Source of the DNA: Myxococcota bacterium
Lineage (GTDB): Bacteria; Myxococcota_A; UBA9160; UBA6930
DNA length: 64,000 nt
Assembly (NCBI GenBank): GCA_965223415.1
Contig: OZ245002.1
Span: 832,001-896,000 of the forward strand
Direction: 5' to 3'
Shown: positions 4,059 to 21,150 of the stretch, piece after piece
Numbering within the stretch: the first letter of the stretch is position 1
Layout of the letters: each line of letters opens with the position of its first letter
Notes under the pieces: model-generated
Told to the model about the DNA's origin: nothing
Seen by the model: the letters and a program-made list of their open reading frames with translations, nothing else
The model's database searches: none
Program-made: the position numbers and the translations under genes

Positions 4059-7000
4059 ATGGCCGAGGCCCAAGAGCCGTCGCAAGGACGTGAATCGGGA
4101 ACCCTGCGCTTCGCGAAGATGATCGTGAAGCACCGCGCGATCGTGGCGTTCCTGCTCATCGCGTCCACGAGCTTCTTCGCGTACCCGATCCTGAACACGG
4201 TGTTGACCGCGCTCGGCTCGCCGCTTCCGGGCCCCACCGTGCGCATCGACACCAATGCCCGGGACCAGTGGCCGGACCATCCCTTCATCCACGCCCAGGA
4301 CAAGTTCGCGGCCAAGTTCGGCTCGGCCACGGCGGTGGCGATCGGCCTGGTGGTCGAAGAAGGCACGATCTTCACCCCGGAGACACTCCAGAAGATCGAC
4401 CGCATCACGAAGAGCCTCGACGGCGTCGAGGCCAGCGAGGAGCTCCTGGCCTTCGACAGCCAGACCGACGCCCGGGACGAGTTGCGCGAGGCGTGGGAGG
4501 AGGAAGCCGGCGACGAGGAGGTCTCGGCCTTCCAGATGATCCGGCGCCTCGACCGGCAATTCCCTCCCTACCCGGTCAACCACGACCAGGTGCGCTCGGT
4601 CAGCCACCGCTCGACCCGGGTGTTCGAGATCCAGCCCGACGGCGCGATCGAGAACCGGCTGCTCATGCCGAAGATCCCGGAGACCCAGGAGCAGGCGGAC
4701 AAGATCCGCGAGCTGGTCCGCCAGAACCCGCCGGTGATCTTCGGCCGCTACGTCTCCTACGACGAGAAGGCCGCGCTGATCACGGCCAACTTCGTCACGG
4801 ATCGGCTCTCGGGCAGCGAGGTGTACCGGGCCGTCTTCGACCACGTCCAGCGCATCAAGGACGTGGAGGAGGACGCGAACCACAAGATCTACATCTCCGG
4901 TGCCCCGGTGTTGGTCGGCTGGATCCTGAAGCACGCCTTCCAGATCGGGCTCTACGTGCTGCTCACGATCGCGATGATCTTCCTGCTGCTGTGGGCCTAC
5001 TTCCGGCGCTGGCACGGCGTCTTCATCCCCTTCATCGCGGCCGTCGCCACGGTGATCTGGGGTCTCGGCTACACCGGCTGGCGGGGCATCACCTTCGACC
5101 CGCTCATCCTCGTGATCCCGATGATCATCACCGCCCGCGCCGTTTCCCACACGGTGCAGATGGCGGAGCGCTTCTTCGAGGACTACGAGATCATGCTCCC
5201 GCGCTACGGCGACCCGGACGAGGCCAAGCGCGAGGTGGCCACGATCGCCATGGGCGAGCTGATCGTGCCCGGCACTCTCGGCATCATCACCGACGTCGCC
5301 GGCCTGCTGGCGATCATGGTGACGACGATCCCACAGATGCGGGACCTGGGTGAGTTCGGCGCCTTCTGGGTGGTCTCGATCATCGTCACGGTGGAGATCC
5401 TCCATCCGATCCTGATCTGCTACATGCCGGCGCCCACCGAGCACGAGCACTTCCTGCCCGAGTTCATGATCCGGTTCACTCGCTTCATCGGGAACACGGC
5501 GACCCACCCGACCTACAAGTACGTGATCGCTGGCGTGACGATCGCGCTCTTCATCTCCTCCACCTGGGTCACCCTCTTCTACTCGAAGATCGGCGAGGCG
5601 AGCCCGGGAACGCCGCTCCTGTGGCCGGACCACCCGTGGAACCAGGCCACGGCGGTGATCGCGAAGAAGTTCGGCGGCGTGGACACCTTCGTGGTCTACG
5701 CCGACGGCGACAAGGAGAACGCCAGCGGCGACGCGCAGCCGATCCAGCGCATGGAGGAGCTCGAGCGCTGGATGTCGGCCAACACCGACCTCGGTGCCAC
5801 GGTCTCGGTGGTGCCCTTCATGAAGGCCTACTGGGGCCAGAACCACTTCGGCGACCCGAAGTGGTCCTACATCCCCGCGGATTCGGGCAGCGTACGCGCC
5901 GCCCTCTTCCAGCTGCGCCAGAGCGGCGCCCCAGGCTTCCTCCGCCCCTTCATGACCGACGACGGGCGCTACGCGAACCTCGCGCTGATCTATCGGGACC
6001 ACAAGGGCGACACGCTGATCAACGTGACCAAGGCGGCGGACGCCTACATCAAGGACAACCCGATCGGCGAGGTCATCGTCCGGCTCGACAAGAACCACGC
6101 CGAGAAGGGCGCCGGCTTCTTCACCAAGGAGAAGATCCTCGACAATTTCTACTACATGCTCGGGCCGCTGCTCCCGGAGCGCAGCCACACGCTGAAGGTC
6201 AAGATCCGCCAGGAGGACGGGCGCTACGAGGACATCGCCGTCAACGAGACGAACGGCGAAGGCAGCATCCCGGACTGGTTCCAGGACTTCCGCGGCGACG
6301 CCATCACCGACTACGAGGACGCCTTCGACGACATCGAGGAGGGCGACGTCTTCACCTGGCCGGAGAGCCTGGCCGAGTGGGACCAGGACGATGTCCAGTG
6401 GTGGTGGGAGAGCGAGGAGTACGGCATCCGCGCCGTGGGTGTGAATACCCGCGACCTGATCGTCCATGACACGAAGGCGGTCGATTCGGTCCCGCGCTAC
6501 CAGCCCACCAACTCCTGGACGCGCGGCATGCAGTTCGTGCTGGCCGGCGGCATCATGGGCATCCTCGCGGCGACGAACGACGAGGTGGAGCGCAGCCACG
6601 TGGCGAACATCGCGCTCATCTTCCTCATCATCTTCGTGCTGCACTCGATCACCTACCAGTCGGTGCCGAGCGGGTTCATCATCCTGCTGCAGATCGCCAC
6701 AGCCACGATGCTCTCGCTCGCCTACATGGCCATCCGGGGGCTGGGGCTGAACATCAACACCCTCCCCGTCCAGTCCGTGGGCGTGGGCATCGGGGTCGAC
6801 TACGCGATCTACATCGTCGACCGCATCCGCCAGGAGGTGGCGGACACCGCCGACATCGACGAGGCGGTGCGGCGAGCGGTGCGGACGACCGGCATGGCGG
6901 TGAGCTTCACCGCCACGACCATCGTGGGCGGCATCGCCATGTGGGCGCTTCCGCGGCCCCTGGGCCCGGACCTGCGTTTCCAGGGCGAGATGGCCCAGCT

Positions 7001-7169
7001 CCTCGTCATCCTGATGGTCATCAACATGCTCGGCGCGATCACGGTCGTGCCCGCCTTCTACTCGATCTTCCGCCCGAAGGTGGCCACCGCGCTGCTGACG
7101 GAGGAGCAGATGGAGGCCCTGCGCATCCAGAAGGAGGCGGAGGTCCGCAAGGGCCTGCGCGACGAGTAG
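4059..7169 (+). CDS. MMPL/RND-superfamily transporter (paralog 1)
   Basis: 1036 aa, two 1+5 TM repeats, GVGIGVDYAIYIVDRIRQE and ITARAVSH motifs; GAGGA upstream. Confidence 0.9.
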   Translation: MAEAQEPSQGRESGTLRFAKMIVKHRAIVAFLLIASTSFFAYPILNTVLTALGSPLPGPTVRIDTNARDQWPDHPFIHAQDKFAAKFGSATAVAIGLVVEEGTIFTPETLQKIDRITKSLDGVEASEELLAFDSQTDARDELREAWEEEAGDEEVSAFQMIRRLDRQFPPYPVNHDQVRSVSHRSTRVFEIQPDGAIENRLLMPKIPETQEQADKIRELVRQNPPVIFGRYVSYDEKAALITANFVTDRLSGSEVYRAVFDHVQRIKDVEEDANHKIYISGAPVLVGWILKHAFQIGLYVLLTIAMIFLLLWAYFRRWHGVFIPFIAAVATVIWGLGYTGWRGITFDPLILVIPMIITARAVSHTVQMAERFFEDYEIMLPRYGDPDEAKREVATIAMGELIVPGTLGIITDVAGLLAIMVTTIPQMRDLGEFGAFWVVSIIVTVEILHPILICYMPAPTEHEHFLPEFMIRFTRFIGNTATHPTYKYVIAGVTIALFISSTWVTLFYSKIGEASPGTPLLWPDHPWNQATAVIAKKFGGVDTFVVYADGDKENASGDAQPIQRMEELERWMSANTDLGATVSVVPFMKAYWGQNHFGDPKWSYIPADSGSVRAALFQLRQSGAPGFLRPFMTDDGRYANLALIYRDHKGDTLINVTKAADAYIKDNPIGEVIVRLDKNHAEKGAGFFTKEKILDNFYYMLGPLLPERSHTLKVKIRQEDGRYEDIAVNETNGEGSIPDWFQDFRGDAITDYEDAFDDIEEGDVFTWPESLAEWDQDDVQWWWESEEYGIRAVGVNTRDLIVHDTKAVDSVPRYQPTNSWTRGMQFVLAGGIMGILAATNDEVERSHVANIALIFLIIFVLHSITYQSVPSGFIILLQIATATMLSLAYMAIRGLGLNINTLPVQSVGVGIGVDYAIYIVDRIRQEVADTADIDEAVRRAVRTTGMAVSFTATTIVGGIAMWALPRPLGPDLRFQGEMAQLLVILMVINMLGAITVVPAFYSIFRPKVATALLTEEQMEALRIQKEAEVRKGLRDE

Positions 7170-7271: not shown

Positions 7272-7366
7272 GCCGGCGGGTGTCGTCGCCCCGAGGGGTG
7301 GGTCCTCTCGAGGCGCCGGAGGGCTGCGTGAGCCCCCACCCGACCGAGGGAGGTGGCAAGACCGCC

Positions 7367-10300
7367 ATGGCCGAGCATCCGGGGCAACACCAGATCCGCG
7401 AGACCGCGACTCTCCGCTTTGCGCGGTGGACCGTTCGGAATCGATTCTTCGTCGCCCTCGGGCTGATCCTGGCGACGCTCTTCTTCCTCTACCCGACCGT
7501 CAACGCGGTCTCTTCCAACTTCGGGTACGAGCTGAAGGGACCGATGGTGCGGGTCGACGCCAGCGCCCGGGCCCAGTGGCCGGACCATCCCTTCATCCAC
7601 GCCCAGGACAAGTTCGCCAAGACCTTCGGCTCGGCCTCCCTCGTCGCGGTGGCGGTGGTGGTGAAGGAGGGGACGATCTTCACGCCGGAGACGCTGCAGA
7701 AGCTCTCGCGCATCACCCACCGCCTCGACGGCGAGGGCTACGACAGCCGCACCGACGAGCGGGACGCCTACCGGGACGAAATCGAGGAGAACCTCCCGGA
7801 AGACGAGGAGATCAACACCTTCGAGCTGATCAAGCAGCTCGACCGGAAGTTCCCGCCGTACCCCGTGAACCACGACCGGGTCCAGGCGCTCACCCACGGC
7901 TCCACCCGGGTCGTCACGATCGAGCCCGACGGCGCGATCACGTCCGAGGTGCTGGTCGACAAGGTCCCCGAGACCCAGGAAGACGCGGACGAGATCCGCG
8001 AGAAGGTGCGGCAGAACCCGCCCTTCATCTTCGGGCGCCTCGTCTCCTACGACGAGAAGGGCGCGTTCATCGCCGCGAACTTCATCAACGATCGCCTCTC
8101 GGGCCGCGAGGTCTTCATGGCGGTCTTCAACCACGTCCAGAAGATCAAGAACGGCTGGAAGTGCGGCGAGGCCGAGATCGCCAAGGGCATGGAGTGCGCC
8201 GAGGGCGAGTGGATCTGGGAGCCGGAAGAGGACGAGAACCACCACATCTACCTGTCCGGCGAGCCGATGGCAACGGGCTGGATCATCACCCACGCCTTCG
8301 AGATCGTTCAGTACGTCATCCTCACGATCCTGCTGACCTTCCTGCTCCTGCTGATCTACTTCCGGCGGCTGCACGGCGTCCTGATTCCCTTCATCGCGGC
8401 GATGGCCACGGCGGTCTGGGGCCTGGGCTTCACCGGCTGGATGGGGATCACCTTCGATCCGCTCGTCCTGGTGATCCCGATGATCATCACGGCGCGCGCG
8501 GTCTCCCATACGGTGCAGATGGCCGAGCGCTTCTTCGAGGACTTCGAGGTCGTCATGCCCCAGGTGGGCAACGACCCGGAGCGGGCGAAGATCGAAGCCG
8601 CCACCGTCGCGATGGGCGAGCTGATCGTGCCGGGAACCCTCGGCATCGTGACCGACTTCCTCGGCCTGCTCGTCATCCTCATCACCTCGATCCCGCAGAT
8701 GCGCGATCTGGCGGTGTTCGGCGCCTTCTGGGTGTTCACCATCCTCTTCACGGTGGAGATCCTCCACCCCGTGATGATCTGCTACATGGCGCCGCCACAC
8801 GATTCCGAGCACTACCTGCCCAGCTTCATGATCCGGCTGATGCGGGCGATCGGGAACTTCGTCACGGGCCCGGTCACCAAGTACATGGTCGCGGGCGTGG
8901 CGGTCGGCCTCCTGGTCGGCTCCTCCTACATCGCCTTCACCCAGAGCAAGATCGGCGAGGCCAGCCCGGGAACACCGCTCCTCTGGCCGGACCACGAGTT
9001 CAACCAGGCGACCGCCGCCATTGCCGAGCACTTCGGCGGGGTCGACTCCTTCGTGATCTACGCGGACGGGGACCGGGACAAGGCCACCGCGGATCCGGAG
9101 CCGATCCAGAAGATGGAGGAGTTCGAGCGCTGGATGGACGCCCACACGGATCTCGGCGCGCCGGTCTCCGTCGTCCCGATCATCCGCGCCTACTGGCAGC
9201 AGAACCACTACGGCGACCCGAAGTGGTATTTCGTCCCCGGTCACCCGGGCACCGTGCGGAACGTCCTCTTCCAGCTGCGCCAGAACGGATCGCCGGGCTT
9301 CCTCCGCCCCTACGCCACCGACGACGACCGCAAGGCGAACATCAGCTTCTTCTATCGGGACCACAAGGGCGATACGGTGTCGGCGGCCGTGATCGCGGCC
9401 AAGGAGTTCATCCGGCAGAACCCGATCGGCGAGGTGAACATCCGCCTCGAGCAGGATCACGCGGAACGGGACGCCACCTTCTTCGACTACGACAAGCTGG
9501 CCGACAACACCTACTACATGATCGGCCCGATGCTCCCGCCGCGGAACCACAGCCTGAAGGTGTCCATCCGCGATTCGGAAGGGAAGTACACCTACATCGA
9601 CGTCCCCAAGGTACAGGGCGAGGCCGAGGTCCCCGAGTGGATCGGGGAGTTCGCCGAGATGTCGATGGACGACTACCTCGACGAGATGGAGTCGGTGGAC
9701 GAGGGCGAGTACTTCGCCTGGCCGGACGACCTCGAGGAGTGGGACGCGTCGAACGTGGACGCGATCTACGAGAACGAAGAGCTCGGCGTCCGCGCCGTGG
9801 CGATGAAGACGAAGAACCTCATCGTCCACGACCTCAAGGCCGTCGACAGCGTGCCGCGTTACCAGCCCACCAACTCCTGGACCCGAGGCGTCCAGTTCGT
9901 GATGGCGGGCGGCGTGATGGGCGTGCTGGCCGCCGTGAACGACGAGGTCGAGCGCGGGCACATCGCGAACATCTCACTGATCCTGCTCGTCATCTACATC
10001 CTCCAGACGCTCACCTACCGCTCGCTCTGGAGCGGCACGATCATCGTCATCCAGCTTGCCACCGCGACGATGCTCTCGCTGGCCTACATGGCGCTGAACG
10101 ACGTGGGCCTCAACATCAACACCCTGCCGGTGCAGTCGGTCGGGGTCGGAATCGGCGTGGACTACGCCATCTACATCGTCGATCGGATACGCCAGGAGGT
10201 CGTCGAGACCCAGGGCGATATCGACGAGGCGGTCAGACGCACGATCAGCACCACCGGCATGGCGGTGAGCTTCACGGCGACGACCATCGTCGGAGGCATC

Positions 10301-10486
10301 TTCACCTGGACCTTCTCGAACCTGCGCTTCCAGGCGGAGATGGCCTGGCTCCTCGTCATCCTGATGGTCATCAACATGCTGGGCGCCGTCACCGTCGTCC
10401 CCGCCCTCTACTCCATCATCAAGCCCGCGTTCGCCCACGGCCTCCTCGAAGAGCAGGAGCGCGCGAAGGCTGCTGGGGGGGCGTAG
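7367..10486 (+). CDS. MMPL/RND-superfamily transporter (paralog 2)
   Basis: Colinear with paralog 1 (shared QWPDHPFIHAQDKFA, SKIGEASPGTPLLWPDH, VDSVPRYQPTNSWTRG blocks); ATG 7367 after GGAGG. Confidence 0.9.
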   Translation: MAEHPGQHQIRETATLRFARWTVRNRFFVALGLILATLFFLYPTVNAVSSNFGYELKGPMVRVDASARAQWPDHPFIHAQDKFAKTFGSASLVAVAVVVKEGTIFTPETLQKLSRITHRLDGEGYDSRTDERDAYRDEIEENLPEDEEINTFELIKQLDRKFPPYPVNHDRVQALTHGSTRVVTIEPDGAITSEVLVDKVPETQEDADEIREKVRQNPPFIFGRLVSYDEKGAFIAANFINDRLSGREVFMAVFNHVQKIKNGWKCGEAEIAKGMECAEGEWIWEPEEDENHHIYLSGEPMATGWIITHAFEIVQYVILTILLTFLLLLIYFRRLHGVLIPFIAAMATAVWGLGFTGWMGITFDPLVLVIPMIITARAVSHTVQMAERFFEDFEVVMPQVGNDPERAKIEAATVAMGELIVPGTLGIVTDFLGLLVILITSIPQMRDLAVFGAFWVFTILFTVEILHPVMICYMAPPHDSEHYLPSFMIRLMRAIGNFVTGPVTKYMVAGVAVGLLVGSSYIAFTQSKIGEASPGTPLLWPDHEFNQATAAIAEHFGGVDSFVIYADGDRDKATADPEPIQKMEEFERWMDAHTDLGAPVSVVPIIRAYWQQNHYGDPKWYFVPGHPGTVRNVLFQLRQNGSPGFLRPYATDDDRKANISFFYRDHKGDTVSAAVIAAKEFIRQNPIGEVNIRLEQDHAERDATFFDYDKLADNTYYMIGPMLPPRNHSLKVSIRDSEGKYTYIDVPKVQGEAEVPEWIGEFAEMSMDDYLDEMESVDEGEYFAWPDDLEEWDASNVDAIYENEELGVRAVAMKTKNLIVHDLKAVDSVPRYQPTNSWTRGVQFVMAGGVMGVLAAVNDEVERGHIANISLILLVIYILQTLTYRSLWSGTIIVIQLATATMLSLAYMALNDVGLNINTLPVQSVGVGIGVDYAIYIVDRIRQEVVETQGDIDEAVRRTISTTGMAVSFTATTIVGGIFTWTFSNLRFQAEMAWLLVILMVINMLGAVTVVPALYSIIKPAFAHGLLEEQERAKAAGGA

Positions 10487-14615: not shown

Positions 14616-14831
14616 CTACTCGGGGTGGGCGGCGGCAAGGGAGCGGACGCGGCGGCGGACGTAGAGGACGAGGCCGCCGATCAGCGAGACGGGCAGGACG
14701 CTCATGACGACGGTCATGAGCACGTAGGTATCCCGACTGCGGTCGTCCTCCCCTCCGGCGCAGACGGCGCAGGCGCCGGCGGCGTCGGCCAGCAGGAAGA
14801 TGGCGGCCAGGGCGAGCAGGAGCCTCGTCAT
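14616..14831 (-). CDS. Small membrane protein with CAVC motif (71 aa), last gene of the oxidase operon
   Basis: ATGA overlap with upstream gene; MTRLLLALAAIFLLADAAGACAVCAGG followed by one TM helix. Confidence 0.7.
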   Translation of the reverse strand: MTRLLLALAAIFLLADAAGACAVCAGGEDDRSRDTYVLMTVVMSVLPVSLIGGLVLYVRRRVRSLAAAHPE

Positions 14832-15421
14832 CCGTAGACCCTCCAGTAGAGCAGCGGCCAGACGCCCACCACGAAGTACCAAAAGGCCTGCCCCGACGCG
14901 AAGGTGCTCTGGGACAGTCGTCCGCGCTGCAGGCGCAGGAAGTTCATGGCCAGCACCGTGAGGGCGCCCACCGCGTGGAGGGCGTGCATGCCGATGATCA
15001 GATAGAAGAAGCTGCCGTGGGTGCTCGAGGTGAGCGTCAGTCCCTCCCGGATCAGGGCGACCCACTCGACACCTTGGAAGACGACGAAGAAGCTTCCGAG
15101 GGCGATCGCGCCGCCGAGCCACGGCTTCGCCCGGCGCCGGTCCTTGCGGAAGGCCTTCTGCGCCATGAAGAGCAGCACGCCGGAGAGCAGCAGGGCCGCC
15201 GTGTTGAAGGCCGTCTCCTCGACCGGGAGGCGGGGCTGACCCGGCGGGGGCCAGCCGAGCAGCGACTGGGAGCGGGCGATGCCGAGGGCGCTGATCATGC
15301 CCGCGAAGAGCATCACCTCGGTGAACAGGAAGAGCAGCATGCCCAGCACCGCGCTCGGGATGACCGGCGGCCGCGGGTTCGTCACGACCCGGAGCGAGGA
15401 GTTGACGGTGCGGGAGGACAT
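14828..15421 (-). CDS. Heme-copper oxidase subunit III family protein (second copy)
   Basis: LGMLLFLFTEVMLFAG, FQGVEW, IGMHALH, FWYFVVGVW. Confidence 0.85.
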   Translation of the reverse strand: MSSRTVNSSLRVVTNPRPPVIPSAVLGMLLFLFTEVMLFAGMISALGIARSQSLLGWPPPGQPRLPVEETAFNTAALLLSGVLLFMAQKAFRKDRRRAKPWLGGAIALGSFFVVFQGVEWVALIREGLTLTSSTHGSFFYLIIGMHALHAVGALTVLAMNFLRLQRGRLSQSTFASGQAFWYFVVGVWPLLYWRVYG

Positions 15422-15433
15422 GGGCGGCGGCGC

Positions 15434-15784
15434 CTAGTGGTGGGCTCCGCCGTCGGGGGCGGGCTGCTCCACGTGGGGCTTGATCCACTGGTCGCCCTCG
15501 TGCTTCATCACGTCCGGGGCGGTCCCGGCGAAGAGCAGCAGCATGAAGACCAGGGCCGTGGCCAGCAGGTAGGTCACGTACTGGGGCTGCACGTTCAGGT
15601 GCATGAAGTTCTTCACCACCAGGTACGCCTTCCAGATGGCGATGCCGAAGGCGGTGAGCAGCGTGACGATCTGGATCTCCAGCATCGGCCCCAGCACGCT
15701 GACGACCAGCAGCACCAGCAGGATGGCCCAGATCTTGATGTAGTGGCTCTCGGAGTGCGCGCCGTGCTCGGCGTGTTCGGACAT
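15434..15784 (-). CDS. Cytochrome c oxidase subunit IV (caa3/CyoD-type)
   Basis: Three TMs, KAYLVVKNFMHL motif, position in operon. Confidence 0.85.
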   Translation of the reverse strand: MSEHAEHGAHSESHYIKIWAILLVLLVVSVLGPMLEIQIVTLLTAFGIAIWKAYLVVKNFMHLNVQPQYVTYLLATALVFMLLLFAGTAPDVMKHEGDQWIKPHVEQPAPDGGAHH

Positions 15785-15793
15785 GGCCCGTCC

Positions 15794-16363
15794 TTACTTC
15801 GCGATGTAGAGGAGAGGGAAGAGGAAGATCCAGACGACGTCGACGAAGTGCCAGTAGATGCCCACCAGCTCGACCCGGTGGAGCTCGGCGTTCTTGGCCG
15901 CGTCCTTGGCCACGAAGGCCATCAGGATCATGCCCGCGATCACGTGGGAGGCGTGCACCCCCGCGGCCGTGTAGTAGAAGGACCAGAAGCCGTTGGCGGT
16001 GATCGTGAAGCCGTGCTGGATCTCGGTGGTCCACTCGAAGGCCTTCACGCACAGGAAGACGGCGCCGCCGCCGATCGTGTAGAGCAGGCGCCGGGCGGCG
16101 AGCTTGCCGTCGCCCCGCTCCGCAGCTGCGTGCGCCAGCACCGCCGAGAGGCTCGAGGTGAGGAGCACGAAGGTGTTGAAGGCGCCGATGGCGGTGTTCG
16201 TGTTCGCGGCGTAGTCGGCCCAGATGCCGTGGGACAGCCGGAACATGATGTACGACGCCAGGATGCCGCCGAAGATCACGATCTCGGAGGCCAGCACCCA
16301 CCAGACGGCCAGGCGGCCGGTGGGAATCCCCGCGGCGGTGCGCGTGTTCGCAATCGGTCTCAT
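15794..16363 (-). CDS. ctaE: Cytochrome c oxidase subunit III
   Basis: WVLASEIVIFGG, KAFEW, GVHASHV, IYWHFVDVVWIFLFPLLY; ATG at 16363. Confidence 0.9.
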   Translation of the reverse strand: MRPIANTRTAAGIPTGRLAVWWVLASEIVIFGGILASYIMFRLSHGIWADYAANTNTAIGAFNTFVLLTSSLSAVLAHAAAERGDGKLAARRLLYTIGGGAVFLCVKAFEWTTEIQHGFTITANGFWSFYYTAAGVHASHVIAGMILMAFVAKDAAKNAELHRVELVGIYWHFVDVVWIFLFPLLYIAK

Positions 16364-16386: not shown

Positions 16387-18087
16387 CTAGGCCGGCTCGT
16401 TCTGGGGCCAGTAGTCGTCTTCGCGGTCCGGATGGCTGTACTCGTAGGGTCCCCGGTACACCGTCGGCAGCTCCTCGAAGTTGCCGTGGCCGGGGGGCGA
16501 AGGCGCCACCCACTCCAGGGTGTTGGCCTTCCACGGGTTGTTCCCGGCCTTCTTGCCGCTCCGCAGGCTCATCCAGACGTTCACGAAGAAGACGACCTGG
16601 AAGGCGATCATGACGAGCAGCGCGGCGGTCGCGAGCTGCCGCAGGTCGAACATCCAACCTTCGGCCAGCTGCGGGAAGTGCTCGTAGTTGTAGATGCGGC
16701 GGTGCTGACCAGCGGCTCCGAGCACGAAGAGCGGAATGAAGATGACGTTGAAGGGGATGATCGTGCCCCAGAAATGGATCTTCCCCAGGGTGTCGTTCAT
16801 CATCTTGCCGGTCATCTTCGGCCACCAGTAGGTGAGCCCGGCGTAGGTCCCGATGATGGCAATCGGGAAGAAGGTGTAGTGGAAGTGGGCCAGCACGAAG
16901 TAGGTGTCGTGGAAGTAGATGTCCGAGCCGCTGGCTCCCAGGAAGATGCCCGTCACTCCGCCGATCAGGAACTCACCGATGAAGGCGAGGGCCCAGAGCA
17001 TCGGCGTGTTCAGCGTGATCGACCCGCCGTACAGCGTGGCGATGTAGACGAAGATCATCTCCGCGATCGGCACCGAGATCAGCAGCGTCGTGATCGTGAA
17101 GACGTGGGCCATGCGCGGGTCGATGCCCGCGATGAACTGGTGGTGGGCCCAGACGGTGAAGGAGAGCACGCCGGTCGCGATCGCCGTGTTCAGCACCGAG
17201 CGGTAGGCGAAGAGCTTCTTCCGCGCGAAGGTCGTGATGATCTCCGCGCAGATGCCGATCGCCGGCAGCAGCACCACGTAGACCTCGGGGTGACCGAAGA
17301 ACCAGAAGAGGTGCTGCCAGAGGATCGGATCGCCGCCCCGGGTCGGATCGTAGAATCCGGTCCCGATGGTCTGGTCGAAGAGCAGCATGATGGCGCCGGC
17401 GACGAGCGGGCCCACCGAAGCCATGAACAGGATGCTCGCGATGACGATGAACCAGACGACGATGGGCACGTCGTAGAGCTTCATGCCCTTGGCGCGGGCA
17501 TTCATCGCGGTCGTGATGAAGTTGATGCCGCCCAGCAGGAAGGCGATGAATTCCAGCGCGACGGCTACCAGCCATATCGACGAGCCCAGGGGCGTCAAGC
17601 TGTACTCCGCCTTGGACGAGAGCGGCGGATAGGCCGTCCAGGCGCCCCCGAAGGCACCGCCCTCGACGAAGAAAGAGGCCAGGAGCACGATCGCCGAGAG
17701 CAGGAAGATCTGGTACGAGAGCCGGTTGATCTTCGGGAAGACCATGTCGTCGCAGCCGATCATCAGCGGAATCAGGTAGTTCCCGAAGGCGGCGATCAGC
17801 ACGGGCATCGCCACCCAGAAGATCATGATCGTGCCGTGGTTCGTGACCAGCGCGTTGTAGTCTGCCGGCGAGACGACGCCCCAGAGCGGCACGTCCATCC
17901 CGGGCCAGGCGAGCTGCATCCGGAAGGCGTAGGCGAAGAAGCCGCCGATCACGCCCATTGCTATGCCCGTGATCATGTACTGGAAGCAGATCATCTTGTG
18001 GTCGGTGGACCACAGGTACTTCCTGAAGAAGCCCTCGTCGTGGTGACCGTGGTCGTCGTGGTGGGTCGCGACTTCGGCGGTGGCCAT
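16387..18087 (-). CDS. ctaD: Cytochrome c oxidase subunit I (A-type, atypical K-channel)
   Basis: TNHG, WFFGHPEVY, VWAHH, HDT..VLAHFHY, RR pair. Confidence 0.95.
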   Translation of the reverse strand: MATAEVATHHDDHGHHDEGFFRKYLWSTDHKMICFQYMITGIAMGVIGGFFAYAFRMQLAWPGMDVPLWGVVSPADYNALVTNHGTIMIFWVAMPVLIAAFGNYLIPLMIGCDDMVFPKINRLSYQIFLLSAIVLLASFFVEGGAFGGAWTAYPPLSSKAEYSLTPLGSSIWLVAVALEFIAFLLGGINFITTAMNARAKGMKLYDVPIVVWFIVIASILFMASVGPLVAGAIMLLFDQTIGTGFYDPTRGGDPILWQHLFWFFGHPEVYVVLLPAIGICAEIITTFARKKLFAYRSVLNTAIATGVLSFTVWAHHQFIAGIDPRMAHVFTITTLLISVPIAEMIFVYIATLYGGSITLNTPMLWALAFIGEFLIGGVTGIFLGASGSDIYFHDTYFVLAHFHYTFFPIAIIGTYAGLTYWWPKMTGKMMNDTLGKIHFWGTIIPFNVIFIPLFVLGAAGQHRRIYNYEHFPQLAEGWMFDLRQLATAALLVMIAFQVVFFVNVWMSLRSGKKAGNNPWKANTLEWVAPSPPGHGNFEELPTVYRGPYEYSHPDREDDYWPQNEPA

Positions 18088-18103
18088 TCAGCTGCTCTCC
18101 CAG

Positions 18104-18802
18104 CTACCGGGCGGTGGCCGCAGCGAGGGCGGTGGGCGCCTGCTGCGCCTGCCAGGCCGCGTGCTGTTCCGGGGACTCGATGAAGATGCGGGCCGGCATG
18201 AGGCCGTGGCCGATGCCGCAGATCTCCGCACACTGGATGTCGTACTCGCCGGTGAGCGTGGGCTCGAACCAGCCGGTGATCACCCGACCGGGAATGGCGT
18301 CCTGCTTGAGCCGGAAGACCGGCACCGAGAAGTCGTGGAGGACGTCGAGCGACGTGAGCTCGTAGACGTACTTCCTGTTCACCTGGACGTGCAGCTCGTC
18401 GACCTTGGTGATGTCGTCGGCCGTATCGAGCTTCCCGTCGGGGCCGGCGTGAACGAAGGTCCAGGCCCACTGCTGCGAGATCACGCGCACCTTCTCGGAC
18501 TCCGCCTCGGCCGGCAGGGTCTGCTTGATGTCCACCCAGACCTGCACGGCGCCGATCACGATGAAGATGTCGCAAACGAGGATCAGGTGATGCGGCCAGT
18601 GCACCCAGCGGCTCTCGTGCTTCTCGTAGCCAGTGACGTACTCGGCCTTGGGATGCGACTTCTTGCGGTAGCGGAGGATCAGATAGAAGAAGGTGAAGAG
18701 GCTCGCGAAGAACCAGAACCCGACCAGGATCGCGATCAGGTTGACGACGTTGTCCAGGCTCGCGGCGTAGCTCGACGCCTGGACCAGGTAGCGTTCGATC
18801 AT
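18104..18802 (-). CDS. ctaC: Cytochrome c oxidase subunit II (CuA)
   Basis: DVLHDF and CAEICGIGHGLM CuA ligands; QQWAW; ATG at 18802. Confidence 0.93.
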   Translation of the reverse strand: MIERYLVQASSYAASLDNVVNLIAILVGFWFFASLFTFFYLILRYRKKSHPKAEYVTGYEKHESRWVHWPHHLILVCDIFIVIGAVQVWVDIKQTLPAEAESEKVRVISQQWAWTFVHAGPDGKLDTADDITKVDELHVQVNRKYVYELTSLDVLHDFSVPVFRLKQDAIPGRVITGWFEPTLTGEYDIQCAEICGIGHGLMPARIFIESPEQHAAWQAQQAPTALAAATAR

Positions 18803-18812
18803 CGCTGCACCC

Positions 18813-18920
18813 CTAGAGAATGAACAGGAACACGATGGCGATCCAGGCACCGACGCCAGCCATCGTCATGAGGAAGAGGCGGGTGGCAAACTGCTCCGCC
18901 GTGTACTCCTTGCCGGCCAT
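18813..18920 (-). CDS. 35-aa single-TM peptide in the oxidase operon
   Basis: MAGKEYTAEQFATRLFLMTMAGVGAWIAIVFLFIL*; GAGGGGA upstream; fills the gap between the cytochrome c and subunit II genes. Confidence 0.7.
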   Translation of the reverse strand: MAGKEYTAEQFATRLFLMTMAGVGAWIAIVFLFIL

Positions 18921-19811: not shown

Positions 19812-20246
19812 CTAGGCCGGGACCGGGTTGAGGTGGTAGAGGAGCAGGTAGATCACCACACCGGTGACCGATACGTAGATCCAGATCGGCCAGGCGATGC
19901 GCGCCAGACGGCGGTGCCCCTCGAGCCGACCGCGCAGGCCGAGGGTGACGAGGGTGATCGCGAAGACGGGCACGGTCATGGCGAGCAGCACGTGGCTCGC
20001 GAGCAGCGCGAGGTAGAGCCCCTTGGCGAGTCCCTCGGCGTGGAAGGTGGTGTTCTCGAAGTCCCGCGCCGCCTTGTGCAGGACGTAGAGGACGAGGAAC
20101 GCCCCGGAGACGCCAAAGGCCACCAGCATGGTGCGCCGGTGGGCGTCGACCTGTCCCGCCCGGATCAGTAGACGCCCGCGGACGAGCAGGATCGTCGCGA
20201 CGGCGTTCAGGCTCGCGTTGACCGCAGGGAGGAAGAAGAGGTCCAC
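19812..20246 (-). CDS. DUF420 membrane protein
   Basis: LPAVNASLN, HRRTML, HRRLAR..WPIWIYVSVTGV. Confidence 0.88.
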   Translation of the reverse strand: MDLFFLPAVNASLNAVATILLVRGRLLIRAGQVDAHRRTMLVAFGVSGAFLVLYVLHKAARDFENTTFHAEGLAKGLYLALLASHVLLAMTVPVFAITLVTLGLRGRLEGHRRLARIAWPIWIYVSVTGVVIYLLLYHLNPVPA

Positions 20247-20259
20247 GCGGTGCGCGGGT

Positions 20260-21150
20260 TCAGCGGACGAGGAGGTCCGCGATCATCGCGAAGTAGAGCA
20301 GGAACAGGTAGGCGAGGGAGGTGAAGAAGACCCGGCGGGCCGCACCGTCACTGCGCTCGCGGATCAGCCGCACGCCGACCCACACGAACCAGGTGTTGAG
20401 GACCAGCGCAGCCACCCCGTAGAGGCTCCCCAACAGGCCGAGCGGAATCGGCAGCAGGGTGATGACGACCAGCCCGAGGGTGTACCAGAGCATGCGCCAG
20501 CGGGTGCGCTCCGGGCCGACGGCGGCGGGCATCATGGGAATCCCCGCCGCGGCGTAGTCCTCGGCGCGATAGAGGGCGATTGCCCATACGTGGGGCGGCT
20601 GCCAGAGGAAGACGATCCCGAAGAGCAGCAGGCCCGGGAGGCCGACGCTGCCGTTCACCGCAGCGTCGGCGATCAGCGGTGCCGCGGCGCCCGCCGCTCC
20701 GCCGATCACCGCGTTGTAGACCGAGCGCGGCTTCAGCCAGATCGTGTAGACGAAGACGTAGAAGAGGATGCTGGCGACGCCGAGGGCGGCGGCCGGAAGC
20801 CCGCCGGCCAGCCAGAGCAGCCCCGTCGAAGCCACCGAGAGCACCAGGCCGAAGACCAGCGCCGAGCGTGCTCCGAGGCTGGCAGCGGGCAGCGGGCGGG
20901 TACGGGTGCGCTCCATCAGGGCGTCCCGGTCCCGCTCGACGTACATGTTCAGCGTATTGGCGGCGGCCGCGGCCACGGCGATTCCCAGCAGGATCAGGAG
21001 CAGGGACGGAAGCGCGGGCCACCCGCCGGCCGCCATGCCCATCACCGGCAGGGCCGTGAAGATCACGAGGGGCAGGATGCGCGGCTTCGTGAGCGCCAGG
21101 TAGCTCACGAAGCGGCTGCGCGGAGCGGGCTGGGCAGCGGCGGCGCTCAT
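20260..21150 (-). CDS. ctaB: Protoheme IX farnesyltransferase (heme O synthase)
   Basis: LTKPRI, ERDRDALMERTRTRPLP, YTIWLK, WQPPH.WAIAL...DY. Confidence 0.95.
   Translation of the reverse strand: MSAAAAQPAPRSRFVSYLALTKPRILPLVIFTALPVMGMAAGGWPALPSLLLILLGIAVAAAAANTLNMYVERDRDALMERTRTRPLPAASLGARSALVFGLVLSVASTGLLWLAGGLPAAALGVASILFYVFVYTIWLKPRSVYNAVIGGAAGAAAPLIADAAVNGSVGLPGLLLFGIVFLWQPPHVWAIALYRAEDYAAAGIPMMPAAVGPERTRWRMLWYTLGLVVITLLPIPLGLLGSLYGVAALVLNTWFVWVGVRLIRERSDGAARRVFFTSLAYLFLLYFAMIADLLVR

What the first reader, a model, noticed from the sequence alone, without database searches (positions are those of the whole stretch)
16387..18802. A-type heme-copper oxidase with no canonical K-channel and two new intramembrane glutamates
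Seen: subunit I keeps all six His ligands, HPEVY (A1-type Glu and cross-link Tyr), the D-channel entry Asp (MIGCDDMVFP), HD and RR. Helix VIII, however, reads ISVPIAEMIF (17050-17079) where A-family enzymes have IAVPTG(I/V)K. The K-channel Thr and Lys (T359/K362 in R. sphaeroides) become Ile341/Met344, with Glu343 beside them. Helix IX carries a second Glu (FIGEF, E372, 16972-16974). The helix VI Ser position reads Ala (GICAEII). Subunit II TM2 lacks the usual LE.IW entry Glu and reads VHWPHHLILVCD. Established: the K-channel Lys is essential in studied A-family oxidases. Inference: coordinated changes in two subunits of an intact operon suggest a rewired proton path, a cation (e.g. Na+) site or altered chemistry rather than decay.
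Basis: partly seen in the sequence, partly recalled or inferred. Interest (0 to 1): 0.78.

Follow-up and report, generated by a model that had tools for sequence, protein, structure and literature searches.

The report
Lysine-less oxidase, cross-subunit Glu-His pair
This operon encodes an intact oxygen-respiring enzyme from a widespread bacterial branch that lacks the textbook lysine proton channel and instead keeps buried acidic and histidine residues that swap between its two core subunits during evolution, which makes it a natural test of how such enzymes get protons to their active site.

Summary
The observation mostly holds. Subunit I keeps the O2 site and most of the D-channel, but K362/T359/S299 read M344/I341/A281. 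It is not decay: the clade spans several phyla, dN/dS is 0.05-0.2, and it is the only terminal oxidase found in nine relatives.

Corrections: subunit II here does keep Glu63 at the E101 position, but only 14 of 75 relatives do. E372 is dispensable (about 11 changes). A third buried Glu (E179, D-channel) was missed. Lys loss predates E343/E372.

New: E343 appears to pair with subunit II His71. When E343 is lost, a carboxylate appears in subunit II instead (Glu68 in one lineage, Asp71 in one genome). II-Asp78 is invariant (80 of 80).

Best reading: an O2-reducing, A1-derived oxidase with a rebuilt side-entry proton route (about 45%). Rivals: D-channel-only supply (about 33%) or a Na+ site (about 13%). 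No atomic contacts could be inspected.

K-less A-family oxidases are already in print, and this scan reported other K-less lineages. I found no report of this clade or its Glu-His-Asp module. New variant of a known kind.

The parts
16387..18087 (-). coxA, subunit I (566 aa), A1-derived heme-copper oxidase lacking K362/T359/S299
   Evidence: TIGR02891 578.6 bits, below its 670.75 cut-off
17050..17079 (-). Helix VIII 337-346: S338 (Rs A356), I341 (T359), E343 (I361; codon 17059-17061), M344 (K362)
16972..16974 (-). E372, helix IX (Rs L390); Glu in 242 of 263 clade sequences, otherwise T/S/A, about 11 parsimony changes
17551..17553 (-).
17137..17199 (-). Helix VII hydroxyl ladder S/T297, T301, T305, S309 (Rs P315, A319, I323, G327) and Q317 (Rs M335)
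17278..17292 (-). HPEVY 266-270: CuB His, A1-type Glu (E286) and cross-link Tyr (Y288)
   Evidence: 120/120
18104..18802 (-). coxB, subunit II (232 aa); CuA ligands H156, C191, E193, C195, H199, M202 invariant in 30 of 30
18569..18616 (-). Subunit II TM2: E63 (E101 position, 18614-18616, not conserved), H71 (18590-18592; H in 74 and D in 1 of 75), D78 (18569-18571; 80 of 80)
18813..18920 (-). 35-aa single-TM ORF between cytochrome c and coxB; candidate extra subunit, no family hit
   Evidence: homolog at this position in 26 of 35 clade loci, 4 more by position; purine-rich RBS-like site and dN 0.08 / dS 1.5 against L016
18930..19574 (-). Diheme class I cytochrome c, likely electron donor; upstream of coxB in main-clade operons
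15794..16363 (-). First subunit III-like gene (cox3a)
15434..15784 (-). caa3-type subunit IV (TIGR02229 above cut-off)
14828..15421 (-). Second subunit III-like gene (cox3b), completing the COX3 doublet
14616..14831 (-). 71-aa ORF with CxxC and a TM segment at the operon end; no family hit
19812..20246 (-). DUF420 membrane protein
20260..21150 (-). Heme O synthase (ctaB); a heme A synthase-family gene lies elsewhere, G000:C1:3787668-3788474

Best explanation
A cytochrome c:O2 oxidoreductase derived from the A1 family. Electrons pass from the co-encoded diheme cytochrome c to CuA, the low-spin heme and the heme-CuB site with the His-Tyr link (motifs shown, activity inferred). The canonical K-channel axis (Lys, Thr359, Ser299, Met316, a conserved Glu101) is gone (shown). 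Inferred: the chemical protons that the K-channel normally carries enter by a rebuilt lateral route in the groove between helices VII/VIII and subunit II TM2. A buried E343(I)-H71(II) pair takes over the protonatable role of the Lys and hands protons along the new helix VII Thr/Ser ladder (297/301/305/309) and S338 towards Tyr270, with invariant II-Asp78 higher up as a further relay or electrostatic anchor. The D-channel still feeds E268 and pumps, with E179 replacing the serine zone. E372 is accessory.
For: O2 site and 7 of 8 D-channel residues intact. In nine relatives this is the only COX1-family gene; none has a bd oxidase and two have a nitrite reductase over cut-off. Positions that line or gauge the K-channel in Rs (P315, A319, G327, A356; passages of PMC10341450) became Thr/Ser, 117-120 of 120. 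A helical wheel puts E343 about 100 degrees off the Lys face, towards helix VII and subunit II TM2 (helix neighbours partly recalled, groove described in PMC10095113). Of 75 paired loci, 64 have E343/H71; 10 (one lineage) have I343 with a new II-Glu68; 1 (G116) has Q343 with II-Asp71; none lacks a carboxylate there. T305 is Thr in 238 of 238 with E343 and Leu in 25 of 25 without. II-D78 is present in 80 of 80.
Against: No coordinates could be inspected; contacts rest on a wheel and on two evolutionary events, one seen in a single genome (1 of 29 parsed congeners). Seven K-less sister loci lack E343, E372 and H71 yet look intact, so the pair is not needed for life without the Lys. The I343 lineage also loses T305 and T297, which breaks the proposed ladder. 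A charge swap fits a structural salt bridge equally well. I341 removes the Thr next to the Tyr. No biochemical or expression data.
Confidence: 0.45

Rival explanations
1. O2 reductase fed by the D-channel alone. The K-side is sealed, the extra D-channel acid E179 lets one channel deliver both chemical and pumped protons (perhaps with fewer pumped per electron), and E343-H71, E372 and II-D78 are structural or electrostatic.
For: An acid in mid helices II-IV occurs in 0 of 149 K-bearing and 56 of 85 K-less rows (25 of 259 rows dropped for gaps). 41 of the 56 are this superclade, 14 are a distant second lineage and 1 is a singleton, so the gain is convergent (tree). E179 arose with Lys loss, before E343/H71. 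Published K-less COX keep the D-channel (bioRxiv 2020.03.01.968255, passages).
Against: 29 of 85 K-less rows have no such acid. It does not explain why K-cavity-lining positions became Thr/Ser, or why a carboxylate is kept by swapping. S201->Phe could narrow the D-channel. Helix IV direction of E179 not seen in a structure.
Confidence: 0.33
2. The E343/H71/T301/T305 cluster next to the Pro340 kink binds Na+, as a pumped ion or as a structural or regulatory cation that stands in for the Lys charge.
For: Carboxylate plus Thr hydroxyls at a helix kink resembles Na+ sites (own knowledge). The genome has a Na+-NQR operon over curated cut-offs. NqrB is in 21 of 40 carriers against 23 of 111 other genomes of the phylum sample (hand count; Fisher p 0.0004, not corrected for kinship or habitat). 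A Na+-pumping cbb3 oxidase exists (PMC8874543, one passage).
Against: 19 of 40 carriers have no NqrB hit. None of 29 F-type c subunits read in carriers has the Thr of the recalled full Na+ motif, though most keep its Gln, Glu, Ser and Tyr. His is an unusual Na+ ligand. The A1 proton D-channel is intact. No Na+ exit path identified.
Confidence: 0.13
3. Altered chemistry, such as NO reduction.
For: NO reductases arose repeatedly from O2 reductases (PMC11214002, parts 1-2 of 6). Helix VIII carries a Glu, and Q317 and T405 near the hemes are unusual.
Against: The cross-link Tyr is 120/120, whereas the NOR families lack it. Neither NOR motif of PMC3084760 is met: E343 lies six residues past the NOR Glu position. 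The genome has a separate cNOR-like gene. Seven of nine sole-HCO relatives have no nitrite reductase over cut-off.
Confidence: 0.04
4. A decaying or inactive copy, or an alignment artefact.
For: Scores fall below the curated CtaD and CoxB cut-offs. One relative (L047) is frameshifted.
Against: dN about 0.05 against dS 0.54-0.68 for coxA within the genus; present in 40 of 151 sampled genomes and 38 of 55 in one other genus; gap-free alignment and a continuous helix.
Confidence: 0.01

Closest known systems
A1-type aa3 cytochrome c oxidase (R. sphaeroides 1M56, P. denitrificans 1AR1)
   Same: Fold (Foldseek TM 0.81-0.82, 38% identity), six His, His-Tyr motif, E286, D132, N121, N139, N207, Y33, S142, CuA subunit II.
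   Different: K362, T359, S299 and M316 lost; E101 not conserved; S197->E, S200->A, S201->F; new E343, E372, helix VII Thr ladder, Q317; subunit II TM2 four residues longer with His and Asp.
A1 'subtype a-III' operon with COX3 doublet (PMC6431628, passage); CoxMNOP-like (name recalled)
   Same: Gene order II, I, IIIa, IV, IIIb. The nearest K-bearing branch in the tree includes alphaproteobacterial loci such as L109 (support only 0.79).
   Different: Those neighbours keep the Lys, Thr/Ser and subunit II Glu. The main clade adds a diheme cytochrome c and a 35-aa TM ORF.
K-channel-less COX of acidophilic Fe(II) oxidisers and Ferrigenium straubiae (bioRxiv 2020.03.01.968255; PMC8239418; 10.64898/2026.01.22.701106; passages)
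   Same: Lys replaced by a hydrophobic residue, subunit II Glu not conserved, D-channel kept.
   Different: The acidophile enzymes are described as A2 type and deep-branching; this clade is HPEVY A1 type. The passages read mention no compensating Glu, His or Asp. Their supplements, which classify K-channel variants, were not seen.
B-family ba3 oxidases with a Lys-free 'alternative K-channel' (PMC3084760, Table 2 passage)
   Same: Works-like analogy: a hydroxyl ladder without Lys leading to the Tyr.
   Different: The B-type Thr, Ser and Tyr positions are Met, Ile and Ala here, the D-channel is present, and sequence similarity is remote (E about 1e-9).
Na+-pumping cbb3 oxidase of Thioalkalivibrio (PMC8874543, one passage)
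   Same: Precedent for Na+ coupling in the superfamily; a helix IX Glu is part of its site (recalled).
   Different: C-family scaffold. By my recalled numbering its Glu lies about two turns from E372; not tested with a tool.

Membership tests
A1-type heme-copper O2 reductase | Six His ligands and helix VI cross-link Tyr (Tyr-I) | tested here: met
   H84, H266, H315, H316, H401, H403, Y270
A1-type heme-copper O2 reductase | Helix VI Glu278 (A1 rather than A2) | tested here: met
   E268, 120/120
A1-type heme-copper O2 reductase | Full D-channel list D124, N199, N113, N131, Y35, S134, S193, E278 (Pd numbering, PMC3084760) | tested here: inconclusive
   7 of 8 present (D114, N189, N103, N121, Y37, S124, E268); S193 is Phe183, with a new Glu179 one turn before
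A1-type heme-copper O2 reductase | K-channel K354, T351, S291, Y280 | tested here: not met
   Only the Tyr; M344, I341, A281. So: A1-derived and working like A1 at the O2 site, not a canonical member
A1-type heme-copper O2 reductase | CuA-bearing subunit II | tested here: met
   All six ligands invariant in 30 of 30
A1-type heme-copper O2 reductase | O2 reduction with about 4 pumped H+ per O2 | not testable with these tools
   Needs biochemistry
NCBIfam CtaD_CoxA / CoxB equivalogs | Curated score cut-off | tested here: not met
   578.6 < 670.75 and 123.5 < 147.7
B-type oxidase | No D-channel; Thr, Ser, Tyr at the K354, T351, S291 positions | tested here: not met
   D-channel present; Met, Ile, Ala at those positions
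NO reductases (cNOR/qNOR, eNOR/sNOR/gNOR/nNOR) | No active-site Tyr; H-X-Arom-X-E and H-H-X-Arom-Arom-X17-E motifs | tested here: not met
   Tyr270 present; the X17+1 position is I337
K-less COX of acidophilic Fe(II) oxidisers | A2 type, deep-branching, K354 hydrophobic | tested here: not met
   Shares Lys loss but is HPEVY A1 type; those sequences were not identified in my tree
A1 subtype a-III operon | COX3 doublet | tested here: met
   15794-16363 and 14828-15421
Na+-pumping oxidase | Na+ site and Na+ translocation | not testable with these tools
   Only genome context examined

The most novel reading that the evidence does not exclude
An A-family oxidase in which an inter-subunit carboxylate/His/Thr site replaces the K-channel Lys by binding or conducting Na+ (a Na+-dependent or Na+-pumping A-type oxidase), serving as the only A-type oxidase found in many Myxococcota-like and other bacteria, with an undescribed 35-aa subunit.
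Probability: 0.13. Interest if true: 0.9.

Novelty: new variant of a known kind. Interest (0 to 1): 0.6.

Why it matters
Why A-type oxidases need a separate Lys channel for the reductive-phase protons is a long-standing question, and K362M blocks turnover in model enzymes (title of a reference in PMC10095113; own knowledge). This clade is a natural K-less enzyme with three built-in comparisons: E343/H71, I343/II-E68, and a sister group with neither. That allows a direct test of whether a side entry, the D-channel alone or a cation replaces the Lys. It is common (40 of 151 sampled genomes, 34 of them with no other A-type hit at E <= 1e-100), so its H+/e- yield matters for the energetics of these mostly uncultured bacteria. 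One named record, Puniceicoccaceae bacterium K14 (L042), is not labelled as a MAG and may be culturable.

Full report
Observation. The minus strand carries an intact operon: ctaB, DUF420, diheme cytochrome c, a 35-aa ORF, coxB, coxA, cox3a, subunit IV, cox3b and a 71-aa ORF. Subunit I (566 aa) aligns without gaps through helices VI-IX to R. sphaeroides 1m56_A. The metal ligands, HPEVY, D132 (D114), the HD and RR pairs are kept. K362, T359, S299 and M316 read M344, I341, A281 and V298. E343 sits at I361 and E372 at L390. The AF2 model (pLDDT 69) shows helix VIII as one helix, and its best fold matches are the Paracoccus and Rhodobacter aa3 oxidases (TM 0.81). The entry Glu is present here but is Glu in only 14 of 75 clade loci.

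Conservation and range. Among the 120 best sequences (query plus 119 homologs at 78% identity or more), E343, E179, S338, T301, T305, S309 and T405 are 120/120, Q317 119, M/L344 120 and E372 116. In 56 distinct genome loci E179 is 56/56, E343 54 and E372 45. On a tree of 263 clade sequences E372 changes about 11 times and E343 once. Named records include Myxococcota, Bradymonadia, Polyangiales, Gemmatimonadota, Bdellovibrionaceae, Ca. Eisenbacteria and Puniceicoccaceae K14 (a partial scan); SAR324 appears among source names. In a sample of 151 genomes of the own phylum, 40 carry the clade enzyme (70% identity or more) and 34 of these have no other hit at E <= 1e-100 (hand count). Within the genus, coxA has dN 0.05-0.08 against dS 0.47-0.68 and coxB dN 0.12 against dS 0.58-0.72. 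Decay is excluded.

What it reduces. The own genome has three COX1-family genes: this one, a cbb3 type and a cNOR type (the last two named from motifs and neighbours I recognised). Nine of 40 relatives have this enzyme as their only COX1-family gene (completeness 75-96%). None of the nine has a bd oxidase, and two have a nitrite reductase over cut-off. With the cross-link Tyr present, which the NOR families lack (PMC11214002, parts 1-2 of 6 read), and a heme A synthase-family gene in the genome, O2 reduction is by far the most likely chemistry. This is inference; nothing was assayed.

Order of events. A FastTree tree of 85 selected subunits I gives a K-less superclade (local support 1.0) marked by E179, Q317 and S338, and inside it the main clade (1.0). 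Seven sister loci (L007, L009, L046, L152-L155) lack the Lys but also lack E343, E372 and II-H71; they keep E179 and II-D78. So Lys loss came with E179 and II-D78, and the E343/E372/H71 module came later. Whether the I343 lineage is ancestral or derived is unresolved (support 0.54). Lys loss is also recurrent: 90 of 151 rows have the Lys, and several unrelated lineages do not.

The inter-subunit pair. Of 96 loci with both subunits parsed, 80 are distinct: 75 main clade and 5 sister. II-D78 is present in all 80. In the main clade, 64 have E343 with H71 and a non-acidic II-68 (T, S, H, N, A). Ten, all from one lineage around L042, have I343 and a new Glu at II-68. One, G116, has Q343 and Asp at II-71; its 28 parsed congeners have E343/H71. 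Both departures from E343 are thus matched by a carboxylate appearing at or one turn from H71. These are only two events, one in a single genome, but they agree with the helical wheel, which puts E343 about 100 degrees away from the Lys face, towards helix VII and subunit II TM2. That groove is described as bordered by helices VII, VIII and II-TM2 at the K-channel entrance (PMC10095113 passages). Rs P315, A319, G327 and A356 are used to define or gauge the K-channel (PMC10341450 passages); here they are Thr/Ser, and T305 tracks E343 perfectly (238/238 against 0/25, one event).

The D-channel. Seven of the eight defining residues are kept (PMC3084760 passage). The serine zone (S200/S201, bioRxiv 040717 passages) is replaced by Ala/Phe with Glu at S197. 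Prompted and by earlier scan notes on K-less oxidases with glutamate-lined D-channels, I counted acids in mid helices II-IV: 0 of 149 K-bearing and 56 of 85 K-less rows (25 of 259 rows dropped for gaps). 41 of the 56 belong to this superclade, 14 to a distant lineage and 1 is a singleton; 29 K-less rows have none. This supports the D-only rival as much as my lead reading.

Sodium. The genome has a Na+-NQR operon. NqrB occurs in 21 of 40 carriers and 23 of 111 other genomes, an enrichment confounded by kinship and habitat; nearly half of the carriers have no hit. None of 29 F-type c subunits read from 29 carrier genomes has the Thr of the recalled full Na+ motif; two further hits looked like V-type subunits and two of 30 searched genomes gave no hit. 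A Na+ site remains possible on chemistry grounds only.

Mechanism. Shown: O2-site motifs, loss of the K axis, conserved new polar residues, co-substitution between I-343 and II-68/71. Inferred: physical contact, proton conduction along the ladder, pumping. I give the side-entry proton route 0.45, D-only supply 0.33, Na+ 0.13, NO reduction 0.04, decay 0.01, and leave 0.04 unassigned.

Prior knowledge. K-less A-family COX is in print for acidophilic Fe(II) oxidisers and relatives (bioRxiv 2020.03.01.968255, passages; PMC8239418, passages) and Ferrigenium (10.64898/2026.01.22.701106, passages). The COX3-doublet operon is the 'subtype a-III' of PMC6431628 (passages). PMC8239185 passages give the textbook channel roles. 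Ten searches of the open library returned no paper on this clade or on a Glu-His-Asp module between subunits; subscription journals and all supplements were not seen, and the Degli Esposti and Murali supplements could list members. This scan has reported at least eight findings on other K-less oxidases. Look-ups by sequence and place showed no report on the channels of this clade; whether e1-6710274 concerns a related lineage could not be told.

Verdict. Real, conserved and apparently unstudied: a new variant of the A1-derived oxidases. The surprise is lowered by the recurrence of Lys loss and raised by the clean charge swaps, which make the question testable. Interest 0.6.

Noticed in passing
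window 18813-18920 (-): Conserved 34-36 aa single-TM ORF between the cytochrome c gene and coxB in most main-clade operons, not detected by tblastn in sister loci; no family hit; candidate extra subunit.
   Followed up: partly
window 14616-14831 (-): 71-aa ORF with a hydrophobic N-terminus, CxxC and a TM segment, found after cox3b in several clade and some sister operons; possibly a copper-handling or assembly factor (guess).
   Followed up: partly
window 16387-18087, residues 126, 405-419, 461-462, 483: Other clade-specific changes: W144->Q126, V423->T405, helix X P408 and T419, Q461/H462 before the RR pair, R483. Their role is unexplained.
   Followed up: no
G000:C1:1706500-1713500 (L118) and G000:C1:2031647-2031838 (L113): Na+-NQR operon with apbE; ATP synthase c subunit with a partial Na+-type motif.
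   Followed up: partly
L002 and L003: The genome's other two heme-copper enzymes look like a cbb3 oxidase (ccoN, ccoO) and a cNOR (norC, norB, then a MoxR-type ATPase), yet no nirS or nirK reached cut-off in this genome.
   Followed up: partly
L040: A record titled 'Klebsiella pneumoniae' MAG carries the full clade operon at 71% identity; more likely a mislabelled or mixed bin than a Klebsiella gene.
   Followed up: no
L047: Clade coxA and cox3a are in several reading-frame pieces; assembly errors or a pseudogene.
   Followed up: no
P0144, P0157, P0172, P0177 and ten more representatives: A distant K-less lineage with Glu in helix IV (and in helix II in 13 of 14), convergent with E179 here; probably the lineage of earlier scan notes.
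   Followed up: partly
window 4059-7166 and 7280-10483 (+): Two tandem genes of about 1050 aa with similar N-termini; the second is an MMPL/RND-type transporter.
   Followed up: no
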